A stretch of DNA of 62,080 nt, filler included, from Squatina squatina (Eukaryota), in assembly GCA_031763465.1 (NCBI GenBank). It is 3 parts of 3 records of this genome, joined end to end, with 100 filler letters (N's around TTAATTAATTAA, not from the genome) between each part and the next. Parts side by side here need not be neighbours in the genome. Positions count along the whole stretch, not along the records: positions 28,995 to 47,926 come from JARFOE010000233.1; 2 more parts are not named here. One strand, written 5' to 3'. The position numbers and the translations under genes were made by a program. The notes beneath the pieces were generated by a model. The model did not search any database. It worked only from the letters and a program-made list of their open reading frames with translations, and had not been told where the DNA came from. Position 1 is the first letter of the stretch. Each line of letters opens with the position of its first letter. Shown piece after piece: positions 29,294 through 53,077 of this stretch.

Positions 29294-29571
29294 GTTTTTT
29301 TTAAACAAACTTTCCAGAAATTGTTTTAAATTTTAGTTTTCAAGCTGCTTAATATTGTATAAATGATTAAAACCAGATATATATAACAAATCATAATGTT
29401 GATTATTTGGCTTTCTTGGGTTCTCTTTAAACTGAATATGCAATGTATGTGCAAGTTTAATTACAAGCCCAATTTTTCATAACCTAAATGCTTTCTGTTA
29501 AGTTTTTTACAACTTGTTGGCATTTACCTTTTAAACATTTTTAAGTAATGTGGAAACCACTTTTGTTTTAG

Positions 29572-29717
29572 AGCTGGAGACTTCGGACAATGAAGAGGAT
29601 GTAGAAGGTCAGATGATAGAATATGATTCATCTGAACAGCTCGGAGAGCAGTTGGTGACACTCTCTTTGCTTCCAGAATCACGCTGGAAAAACCTTCTCA
29701 ACCTCGATGTTATCAAG
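29572..29717 (+). CDS. WDR36: WDR36 internal exon
   Basis: ...IEYDSSEQLGEQLVTLSLLPESRWKNLLNLDVIK|gta (Utp21 domain). Confidence 0.95.
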
Positions 29718-30195
29718 GTAGAAAATAGCTAATGTGCTTTTTAATCTAAATTTTCTTGAATGAGTATTTTTATACTGTTATTTATAGTGGTAGATGAAAA
29801 TAACGTGCNNNNNNNNNNNNNNNNNNNNNNNNNNNNNNNNNNNNTCAAATCAGTTGTCATTACTCTGCCTTCTGTGCACATATATTGCTTTGTACACGTA
29901 TTCCACTGATGGTTTACAATATATGGCCGTGTTCATTTATTCATAGTTTAAATGTTGGAAATTGCTTACTTACCTAAATTTCAGTCAAATGTTTATTTTT
30001 GAATGTTTGTCTAACTTTATCATAAGCCATACTTTCATTATCCATAAGTTATTTGAGAACTCGGGGATAATTTTAATTGGTTAAAATGATGTTAACTAAA
30101 GGTGCTGTCATATATTTTAGTAAAACTTCTCAACCACTTTTAAATCGGACTCTTGTGTTCTGATCATTCATCTGTTTTGTTTGGCTGATCTACAG

Positions 30196-30315
30196 AAAAG
30201 GAACAAACCCAAGGAACCACCTAAAGTGCCCAAATCTGTTCCCTTCTTTATTCCAACTGTTCCTGGCCTTGTGCCTCACTTTGCTGCTACAGAACAACAA
30301 ACTGCTGAGGACCAG
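30196..30315 (+). CDS. WDR36: WDR36 internal exon
   Basis: cag|KRNKPKEPPKVPKSVPFFIPTVPGLVPHFAATEQQTAEDQ|gtag. Confidence 0.95.
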
Positions 30316-31056: not shown

Positions 31057-31175
31057 ATGTTGGGAGTCACCGTGCCCTTTGCCAGTGAGGCATCGGAGTG
31101 TGATTACTGGATCGACGGCTCCAACAAAGAGAGCGCCGTGGAAGATTATTATGAGGTCGGATTGGAACTGGGACG
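31057..31175 (+). CDS. CAMK4: CAMK4 coding exon 1
   Basis: ATG in a CpG-rich context; MLGVTVPFASEASECDYWIDGSNKESAVEDYYEVGLELGR|gtacg (human MLKVTVP...DYWIDGSN..EVESELGR). Confidence 0.92.
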
Positions 31176-33777
31176 GTACGTCTGCAGCTAATTCCACTTT
31201 CTGTCAGCACATGTCAATCTGATCAATCGCTCAAAGCAACACTTGCCAACCCCGACTGTTTGCAGGGCTGGCACAGGGCAACGTTAGCAGTGCTGGAAGA
31301 TATCAACCTTCCAACAGCGAGAAACACTGGTATTGGTTTATCTATTTGGCAGATAGTTTCTGTATCTTCCTGAAAGGCAAAACGAATGAACAGGCGAGGG
31401 TTATACAGAGGCTATTACAGATTAATATTTAAAGAGCGGTTTTGACATGAAAATGTTATCTGTTTGCCAATGGAGCACTCGAGACTTCGGCGGTCTAAAG
31501 AACTGAATTGTTACTTTATTGGTTCTTTGTCATTTTAAATTCATATCGCAGTGGCGTCCAATCCATATATAAATACTACAATACCTTTCAATGGAATAAC
31601 GATTTTGAAAGATTCAGTTAGTAGTGTAGATTCCCGAATTAAAAACAATGAACATCTTTTTGCAGAAAGAAGCGAGAGAGGTTTTAGTTTCGTGAGTCTC
31701 AGTATAATAATGTGAAAACCACTTGCAGGACTTCGTTATTTTCTTGTTTTCCTATTTATAACATTGATAGACTTAAGAATCCAACTTGAACCAGTTTACC
31801 TTTAAAAAGATGAACTTTTCAAATCAGGACAGTGGTTTCATAAGGTTAATTTCTCTTCCTTAATTGCTGGTCGCTATCCATGTCCCTCGTTATCTGTTGC
31901 AGAACATTATAGTAGGTGCATTTATGTAAATGACAATCAACTTTTTTCTGTGTTTTGGCCTGTTTGGTTCTTGATTTAATCCCTTATTCTGATAGTTTTG
32001 GAATCGGGATGCTCAGGTGCTCATTTCTGGTCGCTGGAAATGGCGCAGATGGTGAAAGTGTCGTACAGAACCATGCAAAACCGAAGTTTAAGGTTTGATT
32101 CTCAGTTTGTGCAATTGGCTAGTCTTAGCTGATGCAGCAATTCGGCAAGGTTTCCTACTCTTGATCATTATCTAGAGACACCTGATAAATAGTGCACATG
32201 TGGAGATTGGGTGAGGACCCTCCACGGTTGAATAGCCTGCAGAAACTCACTATCTCGGCTCAGATATGAAGAAAGATTACAAGGTAACAGAGGACTAACA
32301 ATGTTTGTGTACATATATTGTCATCAAAATTCAAGAGGGAGGGAAGAAATTTGCGGTAGAGGAATGGGAGAACATTCATTTTTGAACAGATAGTACTGGG
32401 TTTATGTCCTTAGGCCACTGTCACTCATATCCCCTGCCAAGAATAATATGATTGTTGTTGGTTTTCAGCCAACCTCATACGTGATACTTGCAAAAGCTGT
32501 GAATTTAGTGGGCTGGGGTTCAGGGAAGATGACTGCAGTTGGAGAAGTCAGCTGAAGGAAAATCTATGGGAAATAAATATGGAGCTAAAAATAAAGTACA
32601 AAAAAGCCCAAAATAATGCTAGATGAGTTGTGCAAATTAGTAGTATGATCCTGCTCTAGCCAGTACTGAAATTGACTACTGTACTAGATATTGGTTCAGT
32701 TCCTCCTTAGTGGCATTCCTGACTACTACATGTGAATAAGGGTTCTACTTCTGTCTATAAAATAAAATTGTGTGACATTCAAGGGCAAAGGTTTAGTTCA
32801 GATGTCCACTGACATTATTTACTGCAGGCTGTTGCACATTCTGTCAATTAGCAGGAAACAGTAAAAGTGTATTTCCATGCAACTCCTAGTCAGCCAGTCA
32901 CATTCAAGGGTTTTGTCTGAGAATGTAAAAATACATCTCATTAACTCTGAAGAGCTTTACATTCAAGCTTGACACTGTAACCACACTGCCTACACCAAAT
33001 GCTACCCACACACTCATTCTTTTTCTAGTTACTGGAAGGCTACCATTACACGCATCCATTTTGAACTGTTTTTTAAATGTTAGATCATATGTAAAGTAGA
33101 TTCAGGCAGCACACAATCAGTAGAAAATCCTTCATTTATGTTCTGCAATATAACAGTGTGTGCTCTAGGTAATTAAATTTGGTTTGTGAAAATTGTTTAT
33201 TAATTGTTAAGGCAAGTATTTAGCTCTGAAAGTAATTTTATCAATAACTAATTTTTTAGAAGCTTTTTATTAAAATATATAAATGTGAGATTTCTACAGC
33301 TCATTCCTAAACTGCAATTTAAATTTTTAACCCTTAAGCTGCTGGGATCTGCACCTGATTTTGCTACAACTTAAGTCCTTACATCCCATCTATGTTTTAG
33401 CAAGGTTGTAATATGGCTATATATGGTACCCATGTCCCCAATAGAGAGCTTTTCTTGAAGGGAGCATGAGTTGGAAATAGGCCAACAAGACTCTAGCTCA
33501 AATTCTCAACCCTTGGTCCGTCTGAGTATGGCACTCTGCTAGGAACNNNNNNNNNNNNNNNNNNNNNNNNNNNNNNNNNNNNNNNNNNNNNNNNNNNNNN
33601 NNNNNNNNNNNNNNNNNNNNNNNNNNNNNNNNNNNNNNNNNNNNNNAGAAGCTGCAGACAAGAGCAGGTGTGCAATAAATCTGGGGCACTACCTAGGATA
33701 ACAAACCTCAAACTTTTAATTTCATTTATACATTTATAATGTAGTGAAATGTATTTATATTTTCTATTGTTTCACAG

Positions 33778-33840
33778 GTAGATAAAAAAATAGTTCGAAC
33801 TGAAATAGGAGTTCTACTTCGACTCTCCCACCCCAATATT
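33778..33840 (+). CDS. CAMK4: CAMK4 exon (exon 3 by human numbering)
   Basis: cag|VDKKIVRTEIGVLLRLSHPNI|gtaagt. Confidence 0.95.
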
Positions 33841-34932
33841 GTAAGTATGAATTGCTATATTCATCATAATACCTAACTTGTCCATTTATTAATATATCAT
33901 CAAAGATATAAGACCCTAGTAATTTTCCCTCATTTTTGTGTAAGGTACGTAATGATTTATAACTTGCAGGCTCAGTTATAAATATGCTACATTTTGAACT
34001 GTTTTATCAATGTTTTGACTGCTCACTATCTGATATAGCACAAATATATTTAACTATTTTTGTGACATTATGGTACAAGCCTGAACTTACACATTAACAT
34101 TAGCACTTGGGTGCCGCTACACCATTTCAAGTAGATGAACATGGGAGGAACAGTTTTCCATTTTATTGCTATGTTTGAAGCCTCATTTTTTATTCGTTCA
34201 TGGGATGTGGGCATCACTGGTAAGGCCAGGATTTATTNNNNNNNNNNNNNNNNNNNNNNNNNNNNNNNNNNNNNNNNNNNNNNNNNNNNNNNNNNNNNNN
34301 NNNNNNNNNNNNNNNNNNNNNNNNNNNNNNNNNNNNNTGCCCATCATTGTGATGACAAGAGCGTGTGTTCTACACCATTATCAGGCTATCAGTTCAGCAT
34401 TATAATGCTGTCACCTGACAGGTGAAAAGGCCTTCACTAAGAAATAATACATTCCTTTATCGAGGTTCTGTTGTGCATAACCATTTTCATTTTAATGTTC
34501 TTCTCTGTCTCCACTCCACCCCAAAAAGGAAATCACGAAACCTGCATAAACTGTGAAGCAAACAATCTGGTCAAAGCACAGTTCAGACATCAACATTTTA
34601 CAGTATTATAATTATCTTACATGTGTTGCAAAACCTGTTTACATCATAGAAATATAGAGGAAATTCAGCACTCAAAGTATTCCAATAATTCCATTAAAAT
34701 AGAAGGATTCATTATAATAANNNNNNNNNNTATAATAAGATGGTCCTATGATCATCCTTATTTACCTCTGGCAAAGGTGTGTTACACGTGAATGATTCTA
34801 CACAATGTCATTTAGTGGATTAAATATAAAACAACTTCATTATAGCACTCATAGGTATTAGCTGAGTGCCATGTGTCAACTACTAGTAACTGCGTTCATT
34901 TCTTACTCTGCATTCTGTTGTTTCTTGTCTAG

Positions 34933-35070
<138 letters not shown>

Positions 35071-36483
35071 TAATAGACAGATGACATTTTTATGTAAAAN
35101 NNNNNNNNNNNNNNNNNNNNNNNNNNNNNNNNNNNNNNNNNNNNNNNNNNNNNNNNNNNNNNNNNNNNNNNNNNNNNNNNNNNNNNNNNNNNNNNNNNNT
35201 GAGAGGCACAGCAGGATGATGTGAGTGTGGCGTTGCACTCACCTTTCCCGGTCTAATGATATCATCAAAGTATTTCTGGTACTGAGCCCAGGATGCTCCA
35301 GACAACATCCCTGCTGTTCACCTCCTCTGCTAAATGGGGCCAGGCTCAATTGGTCTTCTGGGAAGCTCTCTTCCGGTCTTCTGTAGGGAAGAGGACCTCC
35401 CTGCGTGCTCTCACTCTCTCCACAGGCATATGGAGGGAATCATCTGAGAACCTGGGTGCAGCCCTCTGCCTCAGTGCAGTCATGTTTGCAAGTATTTGGA
35501 ACACTCCAATGCCTGCACACTCCGAGATGGACCTTCAAATGCAATGTGGCCATAGCTCCTTTAAGTATCCCGGCTGAAAACGGGTCATCGATGATGTCAT
35601 CAGACCTGCATCATTTAATCGGGCCGGGAAATGCGCAGGGCGGCCTTAATAGGCCCCATTAACGCAAAGTTAGATCTGAGGAGCAGAATGGAATGAGCAG
35701 TGGGGTCGCGACCCTCCACGGCGACCGTCCGCACCCGATTCCGCTCAGGTACAGGAAATTCCGGCCTGTGCAGTTTATTTTTCATTGCCTTTGCACTTTG
35801 CACTAGTTATAGAAAATTTGGAGGTGGGGGAAAAAAGAACTGTTTGACTGGATGGGGCGCTTGGAGGTGGAAGGTCATTTGTTGAATCCTCTGGGAATAC
35901 GCCAACCAGTGTCGGTGACCCAAGTCCCGGTGATCGAGCTTTGGCAAAGTAAAGATTTTAATCATTGCCACTTCCTCCATTGTTCATGATGATTACCAAT
36001 GAGACAACGGGGGCCGGGAGTGGCGGGAGGGGGGGAAGTTGCCAAGAAGGACAAAAGCAGGTGAATGTAAACTAATTTCAACACAGTGATCTGCTCATCG
36101 GGTATTTTAGCTGCACATGTTTCCTCCTTCAACTACAAAGAAACCACTAATTATGTCATTAGATACAATTAGCAGTTTTTATGTAAAACATCACACTTAA
36201 CACCTCATCTAAGAGATTCTTTTTTCCCGGCAACTTTACTCTCAGCATGCCTTGTCCAGAATTGGATTTTTTAAAATATATCTAAATATTTATAATCTAT
36301 CCAGAGTTTAAACATATGCTTCAAGAAAGAAGAGAGAAATTCAAAGTAAGGAATGTCTTTCTTACATGTGTTTTTAGGAGGAATTTGCTCTTTGCCCAGT
36401 GACTGTGCACAAAAGGAGTACTAATTTCTCTCCTGTTTGCTAAAGTATTGCTCTACGTAGTAATGTCACACCGGATGAATTCT

Positions 36484-37000
36484 TAGGCAGTCCCTCGGGG
36501 TCGAGGATGACTTGTTTCCACGCCGGAGTTGTGGGTTCTGAGGTGACTAAATAGCCCTATACGGGATCCACAAACTCTACCACAGGTGATATTTGATGGG
36601 GCGAGTGGATGGGATGCTCGGGTTTCTGCGCGCTCCTTCTGCTGCCTGTGCTTGGCCTCCACGTGTTCCCGCTGGAGAAGCTCAAAGTGGTTGGCGCCTT
36701 CGCAGATGCTTCTCCTTCAGTTCGGGCAGTCTTGGGCCAGAGATTCCCATGAGTCGGTGGGGATGTTATATTTCTTCAGGATGTCCTTGAAGCGCTTCCT
36801 CTGCCCTCCTGTTGTGCGGCTGGGGCAGGCTGGTGTAGGACCTTTGTCTTGTGGATGTTTAGTGTGAGGCCCATTCTCTCGTACGCCTCAGTGAATAAGT
36901 CGACGATGGATTGGAGCTCAGCCTCCGAGTGTGCGCACACGCAAGCTCGATGAGAGAAGTTGGGGTGGTCTTGGTTCCAGTGATGCAGCCTTCACTGGCA
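36484..37000 (-). mobile_element. RTE-clade LINE, internally deleted 3' fragment
   Basis: CAHSEAELQSIVDLFTEAYERMGLTLNIHKTKVL on the minus strand (the YADD motif just upstream is deleted), plus an RTE-like 3' end. Confidence 0.75.
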
Positions 37001-37305
37001 GGGACCTTCATCAGACCTATGTTCAGGGCATAGCAGCTGACTCCTGTGCCGTCAGCATTTTGAGCCAGGACTGAAAGAGTCATATCAAAGTTCATCTGCT
37101 GCTGAAACCTGCATCCATGCCTGTGTTACCTCCACACTTGACTATTTCAATGCTTTCCAGGCTGGCCTCCCACCTTGCACCCTCTGTAAATGTGAGCTCC
37201 TCCAAAACTCTGCTGCCTGTATCCTATCTCGCACCAAGTCCGGTTCAGCGTTCACAATTTCTGCATTGGCTCCCGTTCCGGCAAAGCCTCAGTTTAAAAT
37301 TCTTT

Positions 37306-37790
37306 GGGGCCGAAGTTGCCCTGTGCCCCGTGCCCCGTGCCCCATGCCCCGTGCCCCGTTTGGAGGCGGTAACTCTCCAGGGCTGGGTCCTTCAGTGCCT
37401 GGCCCAGGAGTACGGCCCCCGATTTGGAACTGGGCTTACTGCGCGGGAAATTCCGGCACTCCGCTTCGTTTCCAGGGCAGTGGTGCGGCGCTGAGTCCAG
37501 CGTCGCTCGGAGGAGGCCAGCCCTACGCGGAGCTCCGCGCAGTGCTGACGCGCTTCAACGCCCCTGCCTTTCAGTTAAAGGGGGAGGGCCGCAGCGCACT
37601 CTGCACTGGCCACCGATGACCGCCGCTGGGCCGCCAGGGGACAGTGCGACTGGGTTAGCAGCCGGGCTAGCGGTCGGCGTGCCGGGCTAAAGGATGGTGG
37701 CCCGGGGAGCAAAAGGCCTTCCCTTAAAGGGCGCCCCGGGTGCCGATGAGCGCCAGTTTCACGCCTCACGAAGTTGGCGTTGCCGTCACC
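37306..37790. mobile_element. GC-rich MITE/Harbinger-like insertion following an L2 fragment (~37120-37300)
   Basis: Terminus GGGGCCGAAGTTGCC, CpG-rich body, same style as other GGG..AATT-ended elements in the window. Confidence 0.55.
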
Positions 37791-38442
37791 TCCCTCCGAC
37801 CTTGCATCCCACAGGGTGGTGAAGGNNNNNNNNNNNNNNNNNNNNNNNNNNNNNNNNNNNNNNNNNNNNNNNNNNNNNNNNNNNNNNNNNNNNNNNNNNN
37901 NNNNNNNNNNNNNNNNNNNNNNNNNCTCAGCAGGTCAGGCAGCATCTGTGGAGAGAAAAACAGAGTCAACGTTTCGGGTCGATGACCCTTCCTGCTGAGT
38001 TTTTCCAGCATTTATTGACAATATTATATGTACTGACAGAATTTCTGTTCAGAGAATTATTTGCAATTCTGCATATTCCTTTTTTGTCAATTTTGTATTT
38101 ATTCTTGAGATGTGGGCAATGCTGGCAAAACACATTTATTGCCCAACCCAAGATGCCTTTAGAAGGTGTTGGTGAGCCTTCTCTTTGAACTGCTGCAGTC
38201 CTTGTACTGCTGGTGCTGTCGTAATGGTGTTAGGTAAAGAACCCAATGACAAAGAAGTAATAGCTGTTCATGTCCAAGTCAGGGTAGTGTGAGACTTGGA
38301 TGGGAACTTGGAGATGATAATGTTCCCACAATCTTGAATTACCCTTTTAAACAGTTTTAACTGAAATTGGTTTGTTAAGATGTTAAGATGTACTTGCTTA
38401 TTTTGTTTAAACTCCAACCTTAATTTGTTCTTTCCATCCCAG

Positions 38443-38518
38443 CTCCTGAAATCTTACGAGGCTGTGCCTATGGACCAGAGGTTGACATGTGGTCAGTGGG
38501 CGTCATCACCTACATACT
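38443..38518 (+). CDS. CAMK4: CAMK4 exon (exon 8)
   Basis: cag|(A)PEILRGCAYGPEVDMWSVGVITYIL|gtaag. Confidence 0.95.
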
Positions 38519-39087
38519 GTAAGATTCTGAAAATGTAGCATCAGGCCTTTTGTTATTCCAAACTTTCTTATGTTCTCTTAATTAAGGATAGTAATAATCT
38601 GAATGAGAAACTCATCCAAGTACTTCAGTAGTAAAAATAACCCTTCCNNNNNNNNNNNNNNNNNNNNNNNNNNNNNNNNNNNNNNNNNNNNNNNNNNNNN
38701 NNNNNNNNNNNNNNNNNNNNNNNNNNNNNNNNNNNNNNNNNNNNNNNGCTGTGGGACAGCTCTCCCAATGTTGGCACAAGTCCCCAGATGTTAGTGGGGA
38801 GGACTTTGCAGGGTTGACTGGGCTGGGTGTGCCATTGTCGTGTCAGTAGTAAGTACTAAGCCAGTACTAAGGTTGATGCCGGGTGATCTATCTGGTATTA
38901 TTCTTATTATTTTTTCTCATAGCGATTTGTTACAACGGAGTGGCTTGCTAGGCCATTTTAGAGGGCAGTTCTGAGTCAACCACATTGCTGTGCGCCTCAN
39001 NNNNNNNNNGATTTGGACTCGTGTCTCCGGATCATTTGTCCAGGCCTCTGTTTTACTCGTCCAGTAACATAACCACTATGCTACCGT

Positions 39088-39560: not shown

Positions 39561-39817
39561 CAACAGATTATGGGATTAAAATGTACACCAAGATCAGAAC
39601 TGAAGTCCATTAGTTGCATTATATTGAAATTGTAATATTGCTTTTATACACATAAATAGATCAAATGAAGAAACCCACCAAGCCTGGCCACTGCCAACCA
39701 ATATTGTACTTATTAGCTACCCGAGCTCTGTAGCACAGTAGGAAGGAACTTATATCAAGGAATTGCAGGAAAAATATTCTTCTAAACATTGTCTATAGTT
39801 ACTGTTTCAGCTTAGAC

Positions 39818-40044
39818 CTAAGTTTTCAAAGCATTCCGGAGTTCATTATAGAAGTTGACTAATGAATTTGCCACTGCAGAGTCCACTACAGCCTGTGGCA
39901 GCATTCCTCGTAAATCGGTCTGAATAAAGCCAGTCAAGAGGCTGTGGTCAGGGTCACTCTTCAAAGGAATGCAAAACCATCCACATGGGTGATTAAATCC
40001 ACGAACAAAATTAGGTTGTTTCTCCCCATATTCAACACTGACTC
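39818..40044 (-). CDS. STARD4: STARD4 last coding exon
   Basis: cag|(G)[74 protein letters not shown]. Not in the ORF track; position next to CAMK4 fits synteny. Confidence 0.93.
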
Positions 40045-41265
40045 CTGTATTGGGTTAACAAGAAGATTGTCCTTTAATACAACGAGACATTTCAAAGAAT
40101 TACTCCCCAAAATAACTGAACCCTTCTNNNNNNNNNNNNNNNNNNNNNNNNNNNNNNNNNNNNNNNNNNNNNNNNNNNNNNNNNNNNNNNNNNNNNNNNN
40201 NNNNNNNNNNNNNNNNNNNNNNNNNNNCGTCAACACAAAGACAATAGTGGCAGGCAATGGAGGGTTGTGTTCTTCAACTTGCCATATGCAACGCCACAGG
40301 AGATCAAACTAATATGTACATGAATAAATAACAAATTATCCGGACTCAGACAAAGTTTGCTGATAATATCAAACAGGGAGGAGTACCTGGGCTAAGAGAG
40401 CTGGCAGATTATGAACATGTACTGTACACATACTGATTATTCCTGTTCCTTGAACAGAAAAAGATATACTTCACAAACGCTTGTGTACTAGCTTCATTGT
40501 CATCCTTCTTGGTGGTAGAAAGCAGAAAAAATGTACGGCAATATATTACAAAAACAAGAATAAAGAATTAAAGTATACCACAAATGCTAAAGTTTTCGAT
40601 GCAGTGAAGGAAAGGAGGGATCTAAGTGTGCTTGATCCTTAAAAATGGGTGGACAGGTAAAAAAAGCACTTAAAAGGATATTAGCTCGGATGATGTGGAA
40701 TCTGTATGGGTTGAGCTGAGAAATACCAAGGGGCAGAAAACGTTAGTGGGAGTTGTATACATACAGTAGTGGTGAGGTTGGGGATGGCATTAAACAGNNN
40801 NNNNNNNNNNNNNNNNNNNNNNNNNNNNNNNNNNNNNNNNNNNNNNNNNNNNNNNNNNNNNNNNNNNNNNNNNNNNNNNNNNNNNNNNNNNNNNNNNCCC
40901 ATGGAATGCAGGAAACTGGGGTGGGGACATTCTGGACAACAGTGAATAGACAATCTATCAGGAGCAGGCCAGAAAACTGTTGGCAAGTCACTCTGCTTTG
41001 GCTGTGGGAGATAGTGAGATCGGTGGGATGATGCTAGTGGGCACAGACCAAGACAACATCCATGGCATCCCTGTAAAGCAGCAGTTTCCACAAATGTTTC
41101 TGTTTCCTTAATCCCAAGGGGGTTTTACCACCCATTCTTAGTTTACACCCTTCCTTTCCTGCACATCAATCACTGCAATGGCAGGGGCAGAGGACAAGGA
41201 GGAACAGGAGGGAAGAAAGTTCTTCCTTGTGTGCTATTGTGATGACGACTGGGATGATGATGTGG

Positions 41266-42046
41266 AACATAGGAACATAGGAACAGGAGTAGGCAATTTA
41301 GAACCTCGAGCCTGTTCCACCATTCAATGAGATCATGGCTAATCTGCAACCTAACTCCATATACCCGCCTTTGCTCCTTATCCTTTGATATCTTTAGTGA
41401 ACAAAAATCTATCAATCTCAGATTTAAAATTAACAATTGACCTCTCATCAATTGCCATTTGCGAAAGAGTGTTCCAAACTTCTACCATCCTTTACATGTA
41501 GAAGTGTTTCATAACTTCACTCCTGAAATGTCTGGCTCTCATTTTTAGACTATGTCCCGTCCCTAGTCCTAGATTCCCCAACCAGCAGAAATAGTTTCTC
41601 ATTATCTACACTATCAATTCCTCTTAATATTTTGAAAACTTTGATCAAATCACCACTTAACCTTCTAAATTCCAAGGACTACAACCCTAGTTTGTGTAAT
41701 CTCTCCTCATAATTTAACTCTTTGAGTCCAGATATTATTTTGGTAAATCTATGCTGCACTCCCTCCAAGGCCAATATATCCTTCCTAAGTTGTGGTGCTC
41801 AGAACTGAACACAGTACTCCAGGTGTGGTCCAACCGGGGCTTTGTATAGTTCTAACGTAACTTCTACCCCTTTGTATTTTAGTCTTCAAGATATAAAGGC
41901 AAGCATTCCATTAGCCTTTTTGATTATTTTCTGTACCTATCCATGACATTTTAATGATCTATGTACATGGACCCCCAAGTCTCTTTGGACCTCCCCTGTT
42001 TCTAGCTTTTCATCATTTAGAAAGTACTCTGATCTATCCTTTTTGG
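41266..42046 (-). mobile_element. CR1 LINE 3' end with (CTATGTTC)n tail
   Basis: The ggaacata repeats on the plus strand are the tail, followed by CR1 ORF2 C-terminal sequence. Confidence 0.88.
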
Positions 42047-42599
42047 AGAAAGAGGATGTTGAAGACAAGGCTGGACAGGAGTCCCAGGAACAAGATCTTG
42101 TCCCATGTTCCTCTGCCTTGACTCACTCAATCTCACGAATGATCTAATTGAATGGCTTAAGTAGCTGAATGGCCTACTCCTGTTCATATGTTCACCTGTT
42201 ATGGCACTCGCTTTGTTACTTCCAAACACTTGCTCAGATACATTCACCCAGTGACAATATGGCACCAGGAGGTCATGATCACTGATCATGAGAGAGCTGG
42301 AGAAGTAGGGTGGCAAATTGAAGATGAATGTAATGATGACAGCTGCACATGCCAGATTTGTTTCTCCCCCTCTCAAAGCACTACACTAGTGGCACGTAGG
42401 AAGTGATACCAAGCTGCCCAGGCATATGCTCAGAAATGCAGCCAGCAGTAGCAACCTCCAAGGAGCAAGCTGCCATGAGAGCAGGCTAATTTCAGTCTCA
42501 TGAACTTTTCATATAACAGGAGAAGCCAACCAACCTCGCTATACTGGTTGTCTGGTTGCACTTAGGAGAAGCATCAGAATAGGAAAAAGAAAGGGACAT

Positions 42600-43505
42600 T
42601 TAGACATCCAGCCTTCTCAACTTGTCCTGCCACCTTCAAAGATTTGTGTATGTACACCTCCAGATCTCTCTGTTCCAGCACCCACCTTAAAATTGTATCA
42701 TTTAGTTTATATTGCCTCTCCTCATTCTTCCTACCAAAATGTATCCCTTCATACTTTTCTGTGCTAAATTTCATCTGCCATGTGTCTGCCCATTTCACCA
42801 ATCTGTTTATGCCCTCCTGAAGTTTGTTACTATCCTCCTCATTGTTTCCTACATTTCCAAGTTTCATGTCATCTGCAAACTTTGAAATTATGCCCTGTAT
42901 ACCCAAGCCCAGGTAATTTATATATGTCAAAAGGAGCAGTGGTCCCAACAACAACCCCTGGGGTGGAACAACACAGCACACTTCTGGGTGGGCGTGTGTG
43001 CTGTGAGGAGGATGCAGAGAAACTCCAGTATGATTTGGACAGGTTGGGTGAGTGGGCAAANNNNNNNNNNNNNNNNNNNNNNNNNNNNNNNNNNNNNNNN
43101 NNNNNNNNNNNNNNNNNNNNNNNNNNNNNNNNNNNNNNNNNNNNNNNNNNNNNNNNNNNNTTATTTCCTTTTTCAGTTCTCCTCTGTACTTTCTGTATTC
43201 ACCTTAGTTCTCGACTATTATGAGCCTGACATTTATCATAAGCCTCCTTTTTCTGTTTCATTTTAATCTCTGGATCTTTAGTCATCCAGAGAGCTCTAGC
43301 TTTGGATGCTCTTCCTTTCCCTCTCGTGGGAATGTGTCTAGTCTGTACCTGAACTATGTATTGTTTGAAAGCCTCGCATTGCTCATTTACTGTTTTACCC
43401 ATCAATCTTTGATTCCAATCCACCTGGGCCAGATCCCCTTGCAGCTCACTGAAATGAGCCCTCCTCCAGTTGAGTATTTTCACGTTTGGCTGTTCCTTGT
43501 CCTTT
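42600..43505 (-). mobile_element. CR1 LINE fragments
   Basis: PQG.LLGPLL...ISKFADDMKLG and LNWRRA.F..L..DLA.VDW. Confidence 0.88.
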
Positions 43506-44505
43506 TNNNNNNNNNNCTATAAAACTATAATATTTTGACTTGGCATATGTCATTCCCGCAGTAACCTTGATCTATTCCTCACACAGCAGTAATCCCTAAA
43601 CAGTAAACAAACTTAAAAGTGTGAAACACACCAAGACATCTACATACACTTTCCAATGTGGTGTTAACCTAAAATGTCACACTAACATGGGAATTGACAT
43701 AAAAACTGACACTTTCACGTCAAAAGTATATTTCTTGGAGCAGTGGAAGAGTCACATGAGGTGAAAAGTATCAGAGCTCCCTTTTGTAATTTCTTGTATT
43801 CTCTTTGAGGGAGAATGATCATCCAGCTGAGTGAGACTAAAATGTTCTTTTATATAGTGCTCCACATGGAGGCCCCCAATTCTCTTTCTCTGGTCTTGCG
43901 TCAGTTATAATCATTCTGTACCAAGCAATGTCTGGAATCTCTTCCCTCCTTCGGGCAACTACTTTTGGCATGTGATCTCCGCATTCCTTTACTGCAGAAT
44001 TTTTCAAGCTCGGACTTGGTATCTTTTCATAAATCCAGGATTTGGCATTGGAACGCCAAGTGGTTTTCCTGCAACAGATTATTTCAGCTGACTTTGTATC
44101 ATGCACACTCTGCCACAGGCTAGAGAGGCATCCACAAGGAAGGCCAAAAAGCTCAAACTGTTCAAATTCCTTAATGCCAAGTTAGAAGTCGTCTTTCCTA
44201 ATCTAGTGACTGAAAACTAGTTAAGTAGGATGGAGAAGTGACAGCACCATAGTTCTGTGTTTATGCTTGGGCTTCGTGCTCTAACTGAATCAATATTTAC
44301 TTCAGCAAAGACGTTTTCATGTACTAAACCAGATTCCATTTTTTAAAAAGAGACAAGACAACTGTCCAGATCACGTTTCACTTGCCTAACAAGTGGAACA
44401 GTAGCNNNNNNNNNNNNNNNNNNNNNNNNNNNNNNNNNNNNNNNNNNNNNNNNNNNNNNNNNNNNNNNNNNNNNNNNNNNNNNNNNNNNNNNNNNNNNNN
44501 NNNNN

Positions 44506-45070
44506 TGGGACAGATCCCTTTTAAACTCACTGAATTTAGCCCTCCTCCAGTTAAGTATTTTTTTCCTTGATTGTTCCTTGTCCTTTTCCATAACTATTCT
44601 AAACCTGATGTTATGATCACTGTTCCCCAAATGCTCTCCCATTGAAACATGCTCCACTTGCCCCACTTCATTCCCCAGAACTCGATCCAGATCTGCTTCC
44701 TTCCTCGTTGGGCTGGAAACACACTAATCAAGAAAATTCTCCTGTACACATTTCAGGAATTTCTCCCCCTCTTTGCCTTTTACACTGTTACTATCTTAGT
44801 CTATATTAGTATGATTGAAGTCTCCCATTATCATTATTCTGTAGTTCTAGCATATTTATGTAATTGTCCTGCAAATCTGCTCCTCTATCTCCTTCCCACT
44901 ATTTAGTGGCCTATATTATAAATCAAGTAGCGTAATCGCTCCTCTATTGTTCCTTAATTCTAACCCAATAGATTCTGTCATTGACCCCTCACATACATCA
45001 TCTCAGCCCAGTGCTATAATAGTTTATTTGATCAGTACTGCTAAATCCCTCCTTTTTTCATTCCTTATAT
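44506..45070 (-). mobile_element. CR1 LINE endonuclease-region fragment
   Basis: GEHLGNSDHNIRF (the SDH motif of AP endonuclease). Confidence 0.85.
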
Positions 45071-45170
45071 NNNNNNNNNNNNNNNNNNNNNNNNNNNNNN
45101 NNNNNNNNNNNNNNNNNNNNNNNNNNNNNNNNNNNNNNNNNNNNNNNNNNNNNNNNNNNNNNNNNNNNNN

Positions 45171-46270
45171 CTTTTATAGTCATGTTTAGTGCATTTTATC
45201 ATTCAAGGATATTACTCAAAACAACAAAATGCCTGTCTCAACCGACAGCTGAGTATTTTAAAAATTATTTTTAAAGGTTTCTTAAATCTATGAAAGAAGT
45301 ACTTAAAAGGGAGAAAGTAATTTAGAAAGATACGGTTGCAATGCTGCAATTGTCCCTTTTTCTCTCAGGCACAGTCATGCACCCAGTTTGCTGCAACTCA
45401 ACTCTCCCAGCCTAATAGATCCAATGTGAAAGCCACCGAACTTTCAGAAACAAGTCACTCCAGTCCAAAAATGAAAGCAATCAGAAAAGCATCAATACCC
45501 TCACAGAACAGGGAAAATAAAAATCCATCAGAGCTACCTTGCCAAGGAGCATGTTTAAAATCCAAAATAGCACCATTCATCAGTGTCTCAAATCCCGTGG
45601 CAGCACCTCAATCACGTACCACAAGGAAACAATGCATTACATACTATTACAGTATTTCTATACATAAAATTTACATGGTTAAAATATGAGGTTACATAGG
45701 CAATTGAAGATTTCAGAGATACGTTATAAACTAACAAGCTTAATACATTAAAATAAAATGTAAGGGACTCTCAGCCTTTGTATTCTATTAGTTGACAATG
45801 AGAAAATGACATGTAAAAGAGGAAACTCTTTGGTTGTACACTTCCAATGGAATAATGGAAGACAATGTGTTGCATGGTATGATCAGGCCTAGAGGCCCAC
45901 CTGTATTGGTTGTAAACATTTTGTTCACAGTGTGTATATTTTAGTGTTTCCAGTTTAGTAAAACTGCTATTTGTTGTTTTGTGGTAATATTGTCCATGGT
46001 ACAAATCAGCCAGGTTCAGAGTCCCCTCAATTTGTTTTATCTAAGTATAAAAAAAACACAAACAAACTCTGAAACTGTGCCACTTCATCAAAACCAATAC
46101 ACCAAGTCAATACACATGGAAGAATAATGATTGAATATAGAGGGACTCCATTTTCTTTCGGCAAAACATGAATCTGCCTCCATTGAAGGAGTCAGGACCA
46201 AGGCTTTGGTCTTATTTTCCCCTTCTTGAAGCCAGTTTTTTTTCTTCTGGTGGGAGATATGAAGCATTCC
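45171..46270 (-). other. NREP: NREP (P311)/libra-like terminal exon and 3' UTR
   Basis: Minus strand, distal to STARD4, as at human 5q22. Contains the diagnostic miR-29 site. Candidate acceptor ttttcattaaag| at 46271. Several blocks (e.g. GTTTACAACC..TACAGGTGGGCCT) resemble my recollection of the mammalian NREP 3' UTR. Confidence 0.75.
45568..45587 (-). promoter_or_regulatory. Extensive miR-29b complementary site (candidate TDMD trigger)
   Basis: RNA 5'-GACACUGAUGAAUGGUGCUA-3' pairs with miR-29b-3p UAGCACCAUUUGAAAUCAGUGUU at nt 1-11 (G:U at 11), leaves a 3-nt bulge, then pairs nt 15-23 (terminal G:U). Confidence 0.88.
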
Positions 46271-47926
46271 CTTTAATGAAAACAATATTAAATTAAGCTC
46301 AAACTGTTTANNNNNNNNNNNNNNNNNNNNNNNNNNNNNNNNNNNNNNNNNNNNNNNNNNNNNNNNNNNNNNNNNNNNNNNNNNNNNNNNNNNNNNNNNN
46401 NNNNNNNNNNAGCCATCACTAGGGTATGAATACTTGATGTGACAGTTAAAGCAAGGAGTAAAACGACGCTTCAAAAGGATGCCTTGAATGTGCCAGTAGA
46501 GGTTGCATCTATAGTAGGTTCTCCTTGTTTGAACTATGCTGAGAAGAGGTAGGTCCCATGGCTTGGGGAATTGTCACAGAAAGAGGGAGAAGTGAATTAT
46601 CTTTTTACTTTTTATTTTCCACAGAATTTTTAAAATTTCAATGATAGCGTTCTGACAGCAACTGCATAGGTCTCTCTTCTCTTCATGGTCCTAGGGCCTC
46701 TGCTGGACACTGGGGTCTAACAGCATTCCTGCAGCATTTTGCTCATTTTTATATGGGTGGGTGTATTGTTCTCTGACAGAACCAGCTCCCGGTAAACAGA
46801 GAGGAGGCACATCCCCAAGTAGCTGTCTGCCTCCAACTGCCCCAGAACAGCTGAAAAATCATTGTAGGGATGTGAGGTGGAAAGCCTCGGCCAGTAATTT
46901 CATTTTGGAGTTTCTGGGAAGGTCAGAAACTGCTCAAACTTCACTCTCAGTTTCAAGTAATCTGAATTTCCTAGGTGAATTACTGCCTTATCGTACTCTT
47001 CCTAACACCCAATATTATACAACTTTTTACATTTTTTTGGTTACTTCTTTACCCAAAGAACTTTGAGATATGGGTTTAAACTATGCCAAAAGTGGAAAAT
47101 CTTGGCTCTAGTCTCTGGTAATGTTGATTTAATAAAGACAGTGAAATATGTTGGGAGGGAGAGAAACAAGCTGTATATAAAATGGGAAACAATTTCCTGG
47201 AACTGGTTTCCAAATATTTCATGCTTTTCTAAAAATGCACTTGAAAACATTCATACACCAGAACTGTTCCATTCCTTTTCAACCTCTGTCCTTTGACCAT
47301 CTCATGAGAACACCTGAATGAAAAGTAACGCCTGCATGCAAAGTAACAAAGAGCACAGTGAAAATGTGCCTAATTCGATAATCATCTGATTCTACGAAAA
47401 AGGTGGCTCAGGTTTGAAGCTAATTTATGACTCTGAATAATCAATTGATGTTGTGAGGGGCAGGCTAAAATCTGGGCTAACATCCAAAAAGGCATTGTAC
47501 TGTGCAGTTCCTTCCAGCTGCAAAAACATTTTTTTCTTGGACGCTTTCCATCGTAAAAAAGGGTTTAAAATCCCACATGGTCAGAGATTGATTCCTCTGA
47601 AGGAGAGGAAGTACAGCTTGTTAGTGGTACAGTGCTACTTTTCAGTACTAGAAAGACAAAGATCAGTTTGTTTAGGGAGGAGCATTGCCCTCAACAGCAG
47701 ACATGTCACATATGGAACAGTCAGAGTTTTATTGAATTTACTGTGACCCTTTGCGTCATAGCACAGCACATGAAGAACACAAGTGTGTCACATTATACAG
47801 GTTCTAAATAGCTGTACGAATGAGTTTTTAATAATCTTAGTTTTATTTTTGGTGAACAGTATGCTAATTAAAGGTCACTGAACAGATGCAAAATAAAATT
47901 CCCTCTACTCTGCCCCAAAAAGTGAG

Positions 47927-48026
47927 NNNNNNNNNNNNNNNNNNNNNNNNNNNNNNNNNNNNNNNNNNNNTTAATTAATTAANNNNNNNNNNNNNNNNNN
48001 NNNNNNNNNNNNNNNNNNNNNNNNNN
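47927..48026. other. Artificial scaffold-joining linker (44N-TTAATTAATTAA-44N)
   Basis: Motif at 47971-47982, same design as the first linker. Confidence 0.97.
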
Positions 48027-48625
48027 TGTGACCATTTGAAAGGCTCCTGGTTCACCTCATCTTCAGCAGCCTGTCACATGAGGTTTGACGAAAGATTCAA
48101 GCTTCTCTCACACACCTCACCTTGAATGGCCTCTCACCTCAGTCGGCCTGCTGTTGTTTCAGAAGCTTCTGAGGGACTTCTCCCCAGGCCTCGGCTGAAC
48201 AATCACCCACAGACGACAATGGAACACTCAACACTGGTGATCAGTTTCACTTCTGACAATGTGTCAGAGATCTCTGGACTGGTTGGATTACTGGAGACGG
48301 TTTCACTGTGGAGTTGTCCCTTGTCTGTAGATCTGTGTTGTCTATTCTCTCTCTGTGCTCTGGTTTAATATGGTGCGATACTCCTGTAAAACAATAAAGT
48401 CATTTGTGATTTTTCCTCCAATATTCTCCTGTCTCTGAAGGTGCTGCCCCCTCACTGGGAGACTGGTCCACAGGGAGGGTCAGCAGGCTATTGAACTCAG
48501 AGACCAGTGCAGTGTTGCCTTCACCAGACTGGTNNNNNNNNNNTCCAGCACCAATCAATCGATAGTGATCAGAAGCTAATAGTGATCAGGAGGTGATAGT
48601 GATCAATAACAATTTCTTGCATTAT

Positions 48626-49255
48626 TATAGCGCCTTTAACATACTAAAACGTCCCAAGGTGCTTCGCGGCGTAATCAGACAAAAATTGACAACGAGCTGC
48701 GTAAGAAGATATTCGGACAGGTGACCAAAAGCTTGGACAAAGAGGTAGGTTTTAAGGAGCATCCTAAAGGAGGAGAGAGGTAGAGAGGCGGAGAGGTTTA
48801 GGGAGAGTATTCCAGAGCCTAGGCTCCAGGCAACAGAAGGCACGGCCGCCAAGGGTGGAGCGATTAAAATCGAGGGTGCTCAAGAGGCCAGAATTCGAGA
48901 AGTGCAGAGATCTCGAAGGGTTGTAGGGTCGGATGGGGTTACAGAGATAGGGAGGGGCGAGGCCATGGAGGGATTTGAAGACAAAGATGAGAATTTTTAA
49001 ATCGAGGCGTTGACGGACCGGGAGCCGATGTAGGTCAGCGAGAACAGGGGTGACGGGTGAGCGGGATTTAGTGCGAGTTAGGATACGGGCAGCAGAGTGT
49101 TGGTTGAGCTCAAGTTTACAGAGGGCGCAAGGTGGGAGACCGGCCAGGAGAGCAGTGGAGTAGTCGAGTCTGGAGGTAATAAAGGCTTGGATGAGTGTTT
49201 CAGCAGCAGATAAGCAGAGGCGGGGCAGAGACGTGTGATGTTATGGAGGTGTAAG
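48626..49255 (-). mobile_element. L2 LINE 3' part, well preserved
   Basis: Starts with the reverse of the L2 3' end (tatagcgcctttaac..taaaacgtcccaagg); LLKTYLF.QAF on the minus strand. Confidence 0.85.
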
Positions 49256-49344
49256 TATTATTATTATTCGGATTCAGATCTGAAAACCACAACTTTTTGC
49301 AAGCATGTGGAATCATTAATATACTTTTCTAGATTGGTATTTAC

Positions 49345-49488
49345 CTGAATCCCCAGTTCAAGGGAATATCATCATTGAACAGAACATCAGTCAGACTCCC
49401 TTTAGGGCAGTACTCAATAACTATGGTAACGTTTGGCACCTCAATGGATCCACCAATAAACTTGCATAGATTTGGGTGATCGAGTTCC
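49345..49488 (-). CDS. Kinase-homology-domain exon of a receptor guanylyl cyclase-like protein
   Basis: cag|G ELDHPNLCKFIGGSIEVPNVTIVIEYCPKGSLTDVLFNDDIPLNWGF(R)|gtaaat; compare NPR1 [39 protein letters not shown]. Confidence 0.88.
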
Positions 49489-49605
49489 CTGGAATGAGCA
49501 GAGAAGCAATCGGCAAATAAAACCCCGTAAATAGCATTAACTCACACGACAAAGTAGAGCTATGCATGAAATATAGCATGAAACATCTATACATCAGTGA
49601 TTTAC

Positions 49606-49701
49606 AGTGACTGAATAAGATCAATTTCATCTTTATTGTATACGGTTCTGGGATTTTTGCCAGTGTTTTGGAAATCACATTCCACGATTCCATCCTTTTT
49701 C
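49606..49701 (-). CDS. Possible preceding exon of the same receptor
   Basis: ttttcatag|G KKDGIVECDFQNTGKNPRTVYNKDEIDLIQS CT|gtaaat. Phase 2-2 is compatible with the next exon, but there is no recognisable VAxK motif. Confidence 0.3.
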
Positions 49702-50086
49702 CTATGAAAACTGAAAACCGAAAACCAGCGACCTTGAATGTAACTCTTTTTATATTCTCCTCACTAATATATCTTTTTCCTGGGTGATGGATAAATGGAA
49801 CTATTAATTATTTGTCATGCAGACAAAGACTGAATATGCGACCAATTGTGCCTTATGCTTAAATGCATAACCCATCACCCTAACAATATTTAAAAAGAGA
49901 ACATCTGNNNNNNNNNNNNNNNNNNNNNNNNNNNNNNNNNNNNNNNNNNNNNNNNNNNNNNNNNNNNNNNNNNNNNNNNNNNNNNNNNNNNNNNNNNNNN
50001 NNNNNNNCTGAAGATTTGGTCCTCGTCGCCAAGGTCCATTCGATTAAAGAGATAAACTGAAATGGATCAGGATTATCACTACATAC

Positions 50087-50232
50087 CACCAGAGTGAGTA
50101 TAAAGCCACTACAGAACAGGGCAATTGGAAGTCCAATTGAAACTTTGATCCCAAAAGACATGGGACATGCTCCACAGTCGGCAGGGCAGGTATCACATCG
50201 CTCGTCCCCATCACAGACACCATCATCACAAA
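50087..50232 (-). CDS. Cys-rich juxtamembrane plus transmembrane exon of an orphan receptor
   Basis: tag|TT CDDGVCDGDERCDTCPADCGACPMSFGIKVSIGLPIALFCSGFILTLV|gtatgt. Confidence 0.82.
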
Positions 50233-50529
50233 CTAAGACAACACAAGTTTAAAAGAAAACATGTCTTATTGTACAGTATAGCATTTGGAAGAATTCACCT
50301 TCTATTTAATGCTCTTAGTAGGTAGCGACAATGTAGCAACGTGAAGGTGCCACTGAAAGCAGGAGCTGAATTAACATTTTTATTTTCTATATATAATATA
50401 TTCAACATAATATTAAAATACTAGCACATCTCCGATGGCGTTGCTTACAGTGAGTCAGAAGTTCTGCCAAAGTGTGACAGGAAGGAAGTGTGAGGCTTAC
50501 AGGAAGTGTATGCTACAGGTAAGACTTTA

Positions 50530-51123
50530 GGGCGCAAACTTCAGCTCCTGTTGTGCCCCATTAGTGCCTCCGAAATGGCGGCGGGAGGCGGCCACCTCGC
50601 CTCCCGGGGAATTCAGCTGGGGCGCAACGGTGTTTGCGCCTGGCCTGGCAAATTCCATAGCGGGTCGGCGCGTGATGTCATAAAGACGCGCACCAACCCG
50701 CACTGCGCAGCCGCAACCCCCTTTACACTCCGCTTGCGTCCAGCGGGCGGAATTCACCCAAGGGACGTGGCCGCAGCACCGGGCAGTTGCATCATCGGTA
50801 AAACCTGTTGCTGCAACGCCCCTCTTAAAGGAGAGGCCCTGCGCGCCAGCAGCCGCCATCTTTATGTGTTGGCCGACTCTCACGTCGGTCGACAATACTG
50901 TTATATTTAATGATGGCGGCCCATGGCCCCGGTCACTGGTGGCCCGGTGGAGTGCCGCGTGGCGCCATCAGGGTGGCTGGCGGTTCTCCCCTTGACGGGA
51001 GGACTGGCCGCGCTCCTGACGGCAGCGCGCTGCATCTGAGGTCAGGACGCAACGGCGCTGACGCGGCGCACTGACGCCAGGCCAGCGATGTTCCCGGCCG
51101 GCCACCCCAGTTTCACCCATCAG
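50530..51123. mobile_element. GC-rich non-autonomous DNA transposon, same family as 2300-2941
   Basis: TTA then GGGCGCAAACTTCAGC terminus; reverse-complement similarity to 2300-2941. Confidence 0.72.
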
Positions 51124-52760
51124 NNNNNNNNNNNNNNNNNNNNNNNNNNNNNNNNNNNNNNNNNNNNNNNNNNNNNNNNNNNNNNNNNNNNNNNNNNNNN
51201 NNNNNNNNNNNNNNNNNNNNNNNGGAGAAATTTCTTCACCCAGAGAGTGGTGAACTTGTGGAATTCTCTACCACAGAAGGCAGTTGAGGCCAAATCATTA
51301 CATATATTCGTCTTAAATATATGTCGTCTTTTGGATGAGACATTAAACTGAGGCCCCATCTGCCTGCTCAGATGGACATAAAAGGCGTATGGGGAGACCC
51401 CCGGGGTGGGATTAGTTTGGGATTGATGCAGGGCAATGGGGAGAGAGTGGGGTGGGATTAGTTTGGGATTGATACAGTGCTATGGGGAGAGAGCGGGACA
51501 GTGGGATTAGTTTGGGATTGATACAGTGCTATGGAGAGAGAGCAGGGCAGTGGGATCATTTTCGGATTGCTCCAACAAGGAGCCAGCACAGACACAATGG
51601 GCCAAATGGTCTACTTCTGTCTTATAAACCTCCTTGGCTCCATTCCATATATTATTTTTTGTTGACAACAGAATAATGTCTTTTTTTTTTGAATGGAGTA
51701 GAATTGTGTTTGGTAATGAGTGAAAAAATACGTCAGGTTCAAGCCTGAACTGACTGCAAAAAGATTAAAAATACAACAATTAATTTTGTACAAGGGAATA
51801 AGATAAAAATGATTAATTACATACACATTGCCATATGCAGTATATAAAAAAAAAACAAAGCCTGCAATTTTTGCTTTTGCATAAAAGAGCTTATCTGCTT
51901 TTTGTGTGATTAAGCATGGTAGAACATCCCATAAATGTTTGCACTCGATATGTGTGGCCCCGTTTGTTGCTTGGAAACCACCATTTTGCACAGAGTTCCA
52001 GCGGCGGCACACAATTTTTTTCTTTAATTTGTTCTTGGGGTGTGGGCATCGCTGGTCGGCCAGCATCTACTGTAAATCCCTGGTTGCCCTTGAGAAGGTG
52101 GTGCTGGGCCGTCTTCTTGAATCGCTGCAGTCCGTGCGGCGATGTTGCTCCCTCAGTTAGGTAGGGAAATGCAGGATTTTGAGCCAGAAAGGGGCTCTGC
52201 GTAGATCTCAGTGATAACTTTACAACACCTTCCTTGTCCCGTGTCCCACACACTTACGTTGGAGACCGAGGATGCATAAGATCAGTTTCAAGTGTAGTCA
52301 AATGCAGTGTACATCTGAGAAGCTTTACAGGCCGAATCCAGGTCAAGACTAGTAAGATGTAACCTCTTCACAACAGTACTTCTGACCACATGATACCCAT
52401 GTGATAAAAGCCACAACCATGTGTGCAATTTGTACCACACTAGTGCTAAGAAATGTTCAACACCATACTTTAAAAAAAAAAAAATTCCTTTTTAGAAAAA
52501 AAGTGGGCTCACTTCTGAAGAAGCAGAACAGGCCCCTAATGCTATCAGCAACATGATCAATTCCCCACCCTTAGCTATGGTATCACTACGATTGCAAACC
52601 AGTGTATTACACCAGTCAGTGAAAATCTTGTGGAATTTTATCCGTCCTTTGTGTGAATCAAGAAACTCAAGGACCTTGGTGGTGCTCTCCAAGGCACGAG
52701 AAGCTCCGTGACAGTCTTACAAACCTTGCCGTGAATTGGTTTGTCAACTCACTGGGTTCT

Positions 52761-53077
52761 TCAGGATACTGTTTGCGTCCGATAGTGATCAGTGCTCAAG
52801 GTGCCATTTTCAGAGACGACACTTTGCCGGTGTGAGGTGGATTTCAGAACGTCATGCTCCATTTCAATCCTGTGCCTAAAGCTGTGGCAGAACGTATGCT
52901 TTATACTCTGCCATATTTCACGATCCTTGTAGGAGTAAATGATGGGATTCATCAGAGAATTGGTCAAAGCCAGCAGAAGGACCCATATTTTTACGGACCG
53001 CACATTACAGCTGGTACAGTGAATGCCATCCAGAAGGACCACCACCAGCCCTGGAGTCCAGCAAAAAATAAAAGCAC
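52761..53077 (-). CDS. LPAR3-like lysophosphatidic acid receptor, last coding exon (TM6-TM7 and tail)
   Basis: cag|(G)AFIFCWTPGLVVVLLDGIHCTSCNVRSVKIWVLLLALTNSLMNPIIYSYKD...; the mid-TM6 intron is typical of LPAR1-3. Confidence 0.9.

What the first reader, a model, noticed from the sequence alone, without database searches (positions are those of the whole stretch)
45568..45587. miR-29b degradation-trigger (libra/Nrep TDMD) site in a probable shark
Seen: the plus strand reads TAGCACCATTCATCAGTGTC, so a minus-strand RNA carries GACACUGAUGAAUGGUGCUA. This pairs with miR-29b over 11 nt at the 5' end, leaves a 3-nt central bulge, and pairs 9 nt at the 3' end. Established: mouse Nrep and the zebrafish lncRNA libra carry such a site and drive target-directed degradation of miR-29b in brain; NREP lies next to STARD4/CAMK4 in this orientation. 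Inference: the TDMD circuit dates to the common ancestor of jawed vertebrates. The site is invisible to ORF-based annotation.
Basis: partly seen in the sequence, partly recalled or inferred. Interest (0 to 1): 0.85.

Follow-up and report, generated by a model that had tools for sequence, protein, structure and literature searches.

The report
Shark libra/NREP miR-29b degradation site
A shark gene's last exon carries the same 20-letter docking site that lets the mammalian NREP and zebrafish libra RNAs destroy microRNA miR-29b, so this known brain circuit likely dates back to the first jawed vertebrates; degradation in sharks is inferred, not shown.

Summary
Observation confirmed. The 20-mer at 45568-45587 is identical to the human NREP miR-29 site, inside a gapless block 101/111 identical to human (by eye). 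It pairs with miR-29b as described (10 Watson-Crick + G:U, 3-nt bulge, 8 + G:U) and is the best duplex in the window. The window is from a shark. WDR36, CAMK4 and STARD4 pieces lie alongside, though across assembly gaps. Contigs from related organisms span the site and leave the genome at an AG at 46272-46271, while a DNA-like run continues. So this is a spliced minus-strand last exon, with the same acceptor as human NREP. The stretch homologous to NREP's coding part shows frame-shifting indels between sharks and no synonymous bias, so the RNA is likely non-coding, like libra. Degradation of miR-29b, brain expression and the last 3 nt of shark miR-29b are untested. Verdict: a real new member of a known trigger. 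Its ancient origin is probably already implied by Bitetti 2018, which I could not read.

The parts
45568..45587 (-). miR-29b site (8mer seed, 3-nt central miRNA bulge, 3' pairing), identical to the human NREP site
45524..45634 (-). Ultraconserved block around the site: 101/111 identical to human without gaps, with a 30-nt identical run at 45590-45561
   Evidence: by-eye comparison (human sequence in PMC7798263 Fig. S1)
45171..46270 (-). Last exon of the shark libra/NREP orthologue. It is cut at the N gap 45071-45170; relatives' contigs carry about 900 more letters that are not seen in the window
   Evidence: single contig pieces 45173-46271 in 3 of 4 runs
46271..46310 (-). End of the last intron: AT-rich tract and AG acceptor at 46272-46271
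   Evidence: X9, X18 and X12 leave the genome here with loose ends, and X16 continues into the intron
46088..46270 (-). 60-codon open frame homologous to the NREP coding part of the last exon; frame not kept across sharks; likely not a constrained ORF
39821..40045 (-). Neighbour: last coding exon of STARD4 (the only STARD4 exon found in the window)
31057..38519 (+). Neighbour: CAMK4 exon pieces (31057-31173 named from recall; 33748-33873, 34933-35070 and 38424-38519 match Pkinase)
   Evidence: 34933-35070 best hit is CaMKIV
29535..30315 (+). Neighbour: two WDR36/UTP21 exons
   Evidence: Pfam Utp21

Best explanation
This is the last exon of the shark orthologue of libra/NREP, spliced on the minus strand in related organisms and likely non-coding, whose 20-nt site is predicted to trigger degradation of miR-29b as it does in mouse and zebrafish. 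Inferred mechanism: AGO-miR-29b binds the 8mer seed and pairing extends to nt 11. Nucleotides 12-14 bulge out, and nt 15-23 pair, which pulls the miRNA 3' end out of AGO. ZSWIM8 then ubiquitinates AGO and miR-29b decays, while miR-29a/c, which differ at the 3' end, would be largely spared. Shown here: site, homology, exon anatomy, splicing in relatives, loss of frame conservation. Inferred: binding, decay, tissue, selectivity.
For: The site is 20/20 and the flank 101/111 identical to human NREP, with further co-linear blocks along the exon (by eye). It is the best miR-29b duplex in the window. It has the trigger features listed in PMC10899785 section 11: an 8mer seed, at least 6 bp of 3' pairing and a 3-nt loop. 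Contigs of 3 of 4 runs span 45173-46271 in one piece. In one search, 3 of 4 runs leave at the AG and the fourth, DNA-like run continues into the intron. A bamboo-shark miR-29b read is identical to the vertebrate one over its 20 nt, and six mir-29 family loci are listed for elephant shark. For non-coding status: X12 has -2 and +1 indels in the first 55 nt of the exon, and the S. torazame gene model P0001 switches frame relative to the window at the same place. The 19 substitutions give 4, 6 and 5 synonymous changes in the three frames, against a neutral 19-22% (P 0.22-0.49). No Pfam family and no usable Atlas hit were found.
Against: No decay, tissue or small-RNA data exist here. 'RNA' is the tool's guess for these runs, and they come from relatives, not this organism. 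X11 showed no cover of the exon. The only shark miR-29b sequence seen is 20 nt long; with it the duplex is -21.3, hardly better than miR-29c (-20.9) or the next tile (-20.4), so selectivity depends on the unseen nt 21-23. Whether relatives keep the site letter for letter was not shown, because the table was cut. The site is not especially accessible (41st-60th percentile; fold z -0.09). Against 'non-coding': the human-equivalent frame is open for 60 codons (1.4% of shuffles), and 19 sites give low power. Synteny crosses six N runs, and EPB41L4A was not seen on the far side (by eye).
Confidence: 0.66

Rival explanations
1. The same miR-29b trigger, but in the 3' UTR of a short-ORF mRNA: an NREP/P311-like peptide is ancestral to jawed vertebrates, kept in this shark lineage and shifted or lost in catsharks and zebrafish.
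For: The acceptor and first codon match the human coding last exon. In the human-equivalent frame, G and L follow the junction and L-T-P lies in frame. The frame is open for 60 codons (1.4% by chance). There is no indel in it in X9, X18 or X16, and all 27 gap letters of X1 lie elsewhere.
Against: X12 and P0001 have another frame. There is no synonymous or third-position excess. The human stop position is read through out of register (by eye). No Pfam or Atlas hit was found, and only one database protein, a hypothetical one, matched. The taxa that share the frame are close relatives (90-99% alike). The upstream exon and any ATG are missing from the window.
Confidence: 0.18
2. The gene is the orthologue, but in sharks the site works only as a strong ordinary miR-29 target or sponge, or is conserved as part of a wider constrained block; degradation of the miRNA was perfected later in bony vertebrates.
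For: Conservation covers 111 nt, not just the site. Pairing architecture alone does not prove TDMD, which needs validation at physiological levels. The shark miR-29b 3' end is not fully seen.
Against: The letters that pair with the miRNA 3' end are identical to human while flanking positions vary (10 differences in the block, none in the 30-nt core). The same site is reported to degrade miR-29b in both zebrafish and mouse.
Confidence: 0.14
3. Chance match, contamination or misassembly.
For: The window is a chain of short contigs joined by N runs (51 runs).
Against: The chance expectation is 1e-7. The exon differs from human in many places yet is laid at 44 or fewer differences in about 1100 letters on contigs of three other organisms. 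The site and the acceptor lie on one unbroken contig (45171-46310).
Confidence: 0.02

Closest known systems
Human/mouse NREP (P311, C5orf13) 3' UTR miR-29b TDMD site (Bitetti et al. 2018, not held; seen through PMC7798263, PMC10899785, PMC6175985, PMC13631368)
   Same: Identical 20-nt site, 101/111 flank, same last-exon acceptor, co-linear exon; STARD4/CAMK4/WDR36 neighbourhood (the human gene order is recalled).
   Different: The NREP reading frame is not conserved across sharks; EPB41L4A was not seen next door; no functional data.
Zebrafish lncRNA libra (linc-epb41l4a)
   Same: Reported to carry the same site and to be a lncRNA, as the shark RNA likely is.
   Different: LncLOOM's libra set stops at gar and zebrafish and has no shark. 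The shark exon seems alignable to human over most of its length, whereas zebrafish aligns over about 250 nt.
Cyrano (OIP5-AS1) miR-7 trigger
   Same: A conserved vertebrate lncRNA trigger, already traced to elephant shark.
   Different: Different miRNA, locus and pairing (14 nt of 3' pairing).

Membership tests
libra/NREP orthologue | Perfectly conserved 20-nt miR-29 site | tested here: met
   20/20 against human; mouse and zebrafish sequences not seen
libra/NREP orthologue | Homologous flanks / last exon | tested here: met
   101/111 gapless, plus further co-linear blocks; by eye
libra/NREP orthologue | Spliced transcript on this strand covering the site | tested here: met
   in related organisms, runs labelled RNA by guess, strand inferred from the AG acceptor
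libra/NREP orthologue | Synteny on the STARD4/CAMK4/WDR36 side | tested here: met
   joined across N gaps, so possibly set by scaffolding; human order recalled
libra/NREP orthologue | Synteny with EPB41L4A on the other side | tested here: inconclusive
   none seen by eye among ORFs of 28 aa or more; other genes stand there; gappy assembly
libra/NREP orthologue | Brain/cerebellar expression | not testable with these tools
   runs are coded, tissue not given, contigs give no level
TDMD trigger | Strong seed site (8mer, A/U flank) | tested here: met
   nt 1-10 Watson-Crick, U run 3' of the site
TDMD trigger | At least 6 bp of contiguous 3' pairing | tested here: met
   9 with the 23-nt miRNA, 6 with the 20-nt shark read
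TDMD trigger | Central unpaired stretch of 3-11 nt | tested here: met
   3-nt miRNA bulge at nt 12-14; nt 9-11 are paired, as in NREP
TDMD trigger | Site in an untranslated part of the RNA | tested here: met
   all three frames from the acceptor stop by 46088, 500 nt before the site
TDMD trigger | Preference for miR-29b over miR-29a/c | tested here: inconclusive
   -26.9 vs -20.9 with the 23-nt form; -21.3 vs -20.9 with the 20-nt shark read
TDMD trigger | Site- and ZSWIM8-dependent loss of the miRNA at physiological level | not testable with these tools
   needs experiment (criteria)
Protein-coding NREP/P311 gene | Reading frame conserved across species | tested here: not met
   -2/+1 indels in X12; frame switch against P0001; kept in X9, X18 and X16
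Protein-coding NREP/P311 gene | Synonymous-biased substitutions | tested here: not met
   4, 6, 5 of 19 in the three frames; low power
Protein-coding NREP/P311 gene | Match to a protein family profile | tested here: not met
   0 Pfam families; that Pfam holds a P311 model is recalled, and only part of the peptide was scanned
Protein-coding NREP/P311 gene | ATG and upstream coding exon in frame | not testable with these tools
   upstream exons are not in the window; only 30 letters seen as loose ends

The most novel reading that the evidence does not exclude
The NREP/P311 micropeptide is not a tetrapod or mammalian gain from a lncRNA but an ancestral jawed-vertebrate ORF. This shark keeps the human splice junction and an open, human-phased frame through the last exon, while catsharks and zebrafish shifted or lost it. 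The textbook lncRNA-to-mRNA case would then run the other way, with the miR-29b trigger as the constant function.
Probability: 0.18. Interest if true: 0.6.

Novelty: new member of a known kind. Interest (0 to 1): 0.33.

Why it matters
It brackets the libra/NREP-miR-29b degradation site at the common ancestor of jawed vertebrates and gives an outgroup to bony vertebrates. That outgroup helps polarise one of the few cited cases of a lncRNA turning into a protein-coding gene. The exon junction and the sequence that codes in mammals already exist in sharks, but without a frame shared among sharks. This favours the published direction without closing the question. It is an extension of a known system, not a new mechanism.

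Tried and rejected
No whole genome is held, so this organism's mir-29 loci, its ZSWIM8 gene and the upstream exons could not be searched. Bitetti 2018, Ulitsky 2011 and Hezroni 2015 are not held. Rfam found nothing at gathering score in the window and one sub-threshold chance hit near the locus. No special fold around the site and no meaningful repeats in the exon. No AAUAAA or AUUAAA signal in the exon part held; the 3' end likely lies in the gap. A scan for a phase-0 upstream exon of 57-111 nt in 46312-62080 gave 12 candidates, none NREP-like by eye, and tblastn with P0001 found no significant upstream match. Other STARD4 exons were not found. No run was on record as RNA; run X11 showed no cover of the exon, which proves nothing. 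Protein searches returned only P0001 (near lengths only), the Atlas gave no usable hit, and the profile search over cluster representatives was not available. PMC11662681 and PMC5855958 gave no sequence. Rejected: chance, human contamination, a miRNA hairpin at the site.

Full report
1. Observation. The + strand holds TAGCACCATTCATCAGTGTC at 45568-45587, on an unbroken contig 45171-46310 between two 100-N gaps. Its first nine letters occur once in the window, and about 1e-7 copies of the 20-mer are expected by chance. With the 23-nt miR-29b printed in PMC9392259, the minus-strand RNA pairs over nt 1-10 (Watson-Crick) and nt 11 (G:U), leaves nt 12-14 bulged, and pairs nt 15-22 plus a terminal G:U, at -26.9 kcal/mol. 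This is the best of 18,808 tiles; the next unrelated tile is -21.0.

2. Organism and neighbourhood. The START-domain exon at 39821-40045 (-) is the last exon of STARD4. Of 40 hits listed, the best three are sharks at 96, 93 and 91%. Upstream on + lie two WDR36/Utp21 exons and CAMK4 pieces (Pkinase; best solved structure CaMKIV). The order WDR36(+), CAMK4(+), STARD4(-), site(-) is the human one as I recall it; no call shows the human order. The window has 51 N runs, six of them between STARD4 and the site, and most exons of these genes are missing, so adjacency may partly reflect scaffolding. Beyond 49 kb, where EPB41L4A would be expected, lie pieces of other genes.

3. Homology. The human NREP mRNA is printed in Fig. 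S1 of PMC7798263, and I compared it by eye with the window's minus strand. At 45634-45524, 101 of 111 letters are identical without gaps. The ten differences all lie outside a 30-nt identical core (45590-45561) that contains the site. Further co-linear blocks run through the exon, up to the start of the human last exon, which matches the letters after the AG at 46272-46271.

4. Transcript. Twenty coded runs hold part of the stretch; none is on record as RNA and 14 are guessed to be. Of four laid on 29845-47926, three (X1, X5, X9) have one contig piece spanning 45173-46271, with 42-44 other letters; X11 shows no cover. Of four laid on 45990-46310, X9 and X18 stop at 46271 with loose ends, and X12's loose end rejoins the exon and leaves at the same place. 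X16, a 2.1-gigabase DNA-like run, continues into intron-like sequence. This shows a spliced last exon with a minus-strand acceptor in relatives. About 900 further letters of these contigs are not seen on adjacent window sequence and likely fall in the gap. Tissue and level cannot be read from contigs. The difference table was cut (878 rows not shown), so invariance of the site in relatives was not shown.

5. The miRNA. A bamboo-shark liver table lists a miR-29b read identical to the vertebrate sequence over its 20 nt, and a miR-29c read (PMC3789328 supplement). The elephant-shark table lists six mir-29 family loci, without sequences, among the first 30 of 41 places shown. With the 20-nt read the duplex is -21.3, against -20.9 for miR-29c. 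So the preference for miR-29b rests on nt 21-23, which I did not see for a shark.

6. Coding or not. From the acceptor, the human-equivalent frame is open for 60 codons (1.4% of shuffles). It has G, L and L-T-P where human has them, and the 30 upstream letters in X9 and X18 show K, D, G and P in that frame (by hand). Against this, X12 has a 2-letter loss and a 1-letter gain in the first 55 nt. The only database relative, a hypothetical S. torazame protein (P0001), matches two different window frames on either side of that place. The 19 substituted positions within 46091-46270 (of 28 rows; the other 9 lie past the stop) give 4, 6 and 5 synonymous changes in the three frames, as expected without constraint. 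Pfam and the Atlas recognise nothing. I read this as a non-coding RNA that already has the junction and raw material of the mammalian ORF; an ancestral, fast-decaying peptide is not excluded. Either way the site lies 500 nt past the last stop.

7. Mechanism. By the criteria of PMC10899785 the site has trigger architecture, and the same site is reported to degrade miR-29b in mouse and zebrafish and in human breast cancer cells; NREP-triggered decay needs ZSWIM8. I infer the same for sharks. Nothing here measures it. The local fold is unremarkable.

8. Novelty. In the held library, only PMC7798263 holds libra+nrep+shark or nrep+shark+mir-29, and its libra set has eight species and no shark. Searches added nothing. 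The primary paper (Bitetti 2018) is not held. From memory, its abstract calls the site deeply conserved and says the transcript arose in basal vertebrates as a lncRNA, so a shark may already be in its figures or supplements.

9. What I saw of each paper. PMC7798263: passages, supplement 1 part 1, supplement 6, and a search of the supplements (file 5 not searchable). PMC10899785: passages, abstract, sections 11 and 20. PMC6175985, PMC13631368, PMC11662681, PMC5855958, PMC9392259, PMC10912600, bioRxiv 2022.07.21.501032 and PMC10188112: passages only. PMC3789328: a main-text search with no hit and two supplement rows. PMC3964593: supplement rows. Bitetti 2018, Ulitsky 2011, Hezroni 2015: nothing, recalled only.

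10. Verdict. A real feature, correctly identified: a new member of a known kind. Orthology is near certain, trigger function about 0.8, non-coding status about 0.8. Interest 0.33.

Noticed in passing
window 1-62080: The window is a chain of short contigs joined by 51 N runs, mostly 100 long; genes appear only as scattered exons packed close together, as in a reference-guided scaffold.
   Followed up: partly
window 49344-60466 (-): Pieces of a receptor guanylyl-cyclase-like gene (49344-49541), an LPA-receptor-like gene (52764-53108), a mucolipin-3-like gene (56411-56889) and an ABCC transporter (59654-60466) stand where EPB41L4A would be expected. This could be a retained paralogous block, a rearrangement or a scaffolding artefact.
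   Followed up: partly
window 17021-19012 (-): Collagen-repeat plus C1q-domain gene (otolin/C1qTNF type by recall). Profile positions 1-68 and 43-127 of C1q lie in two pieces that overlap in the profile, so there may be two copies or a gap artefact.
   Followed up: no
window 12695-12823 (+): A single C2H2 zinc-finger piece next to an N gap.
   Followed up: no
protein P0001: The S. torazame hypothetical protein scyTo_0006153 appears to be a gene model laid over the catshark libra/NREP transcript, in a frame that this window does not keep.
   Followed up: yes
protein P0036: A bichir record named E41LA also carries the START domain, which suggests EPB41L4A and STARD4 were merged in one model across the NREP locus.
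   Followed up: no
PMC3789328 supplement: The bamboo-shark liver miR-29b read is 20 nt, three short of the 23-nt form; this may be 3' trimming or a mapping artefact.
   Followed up: no
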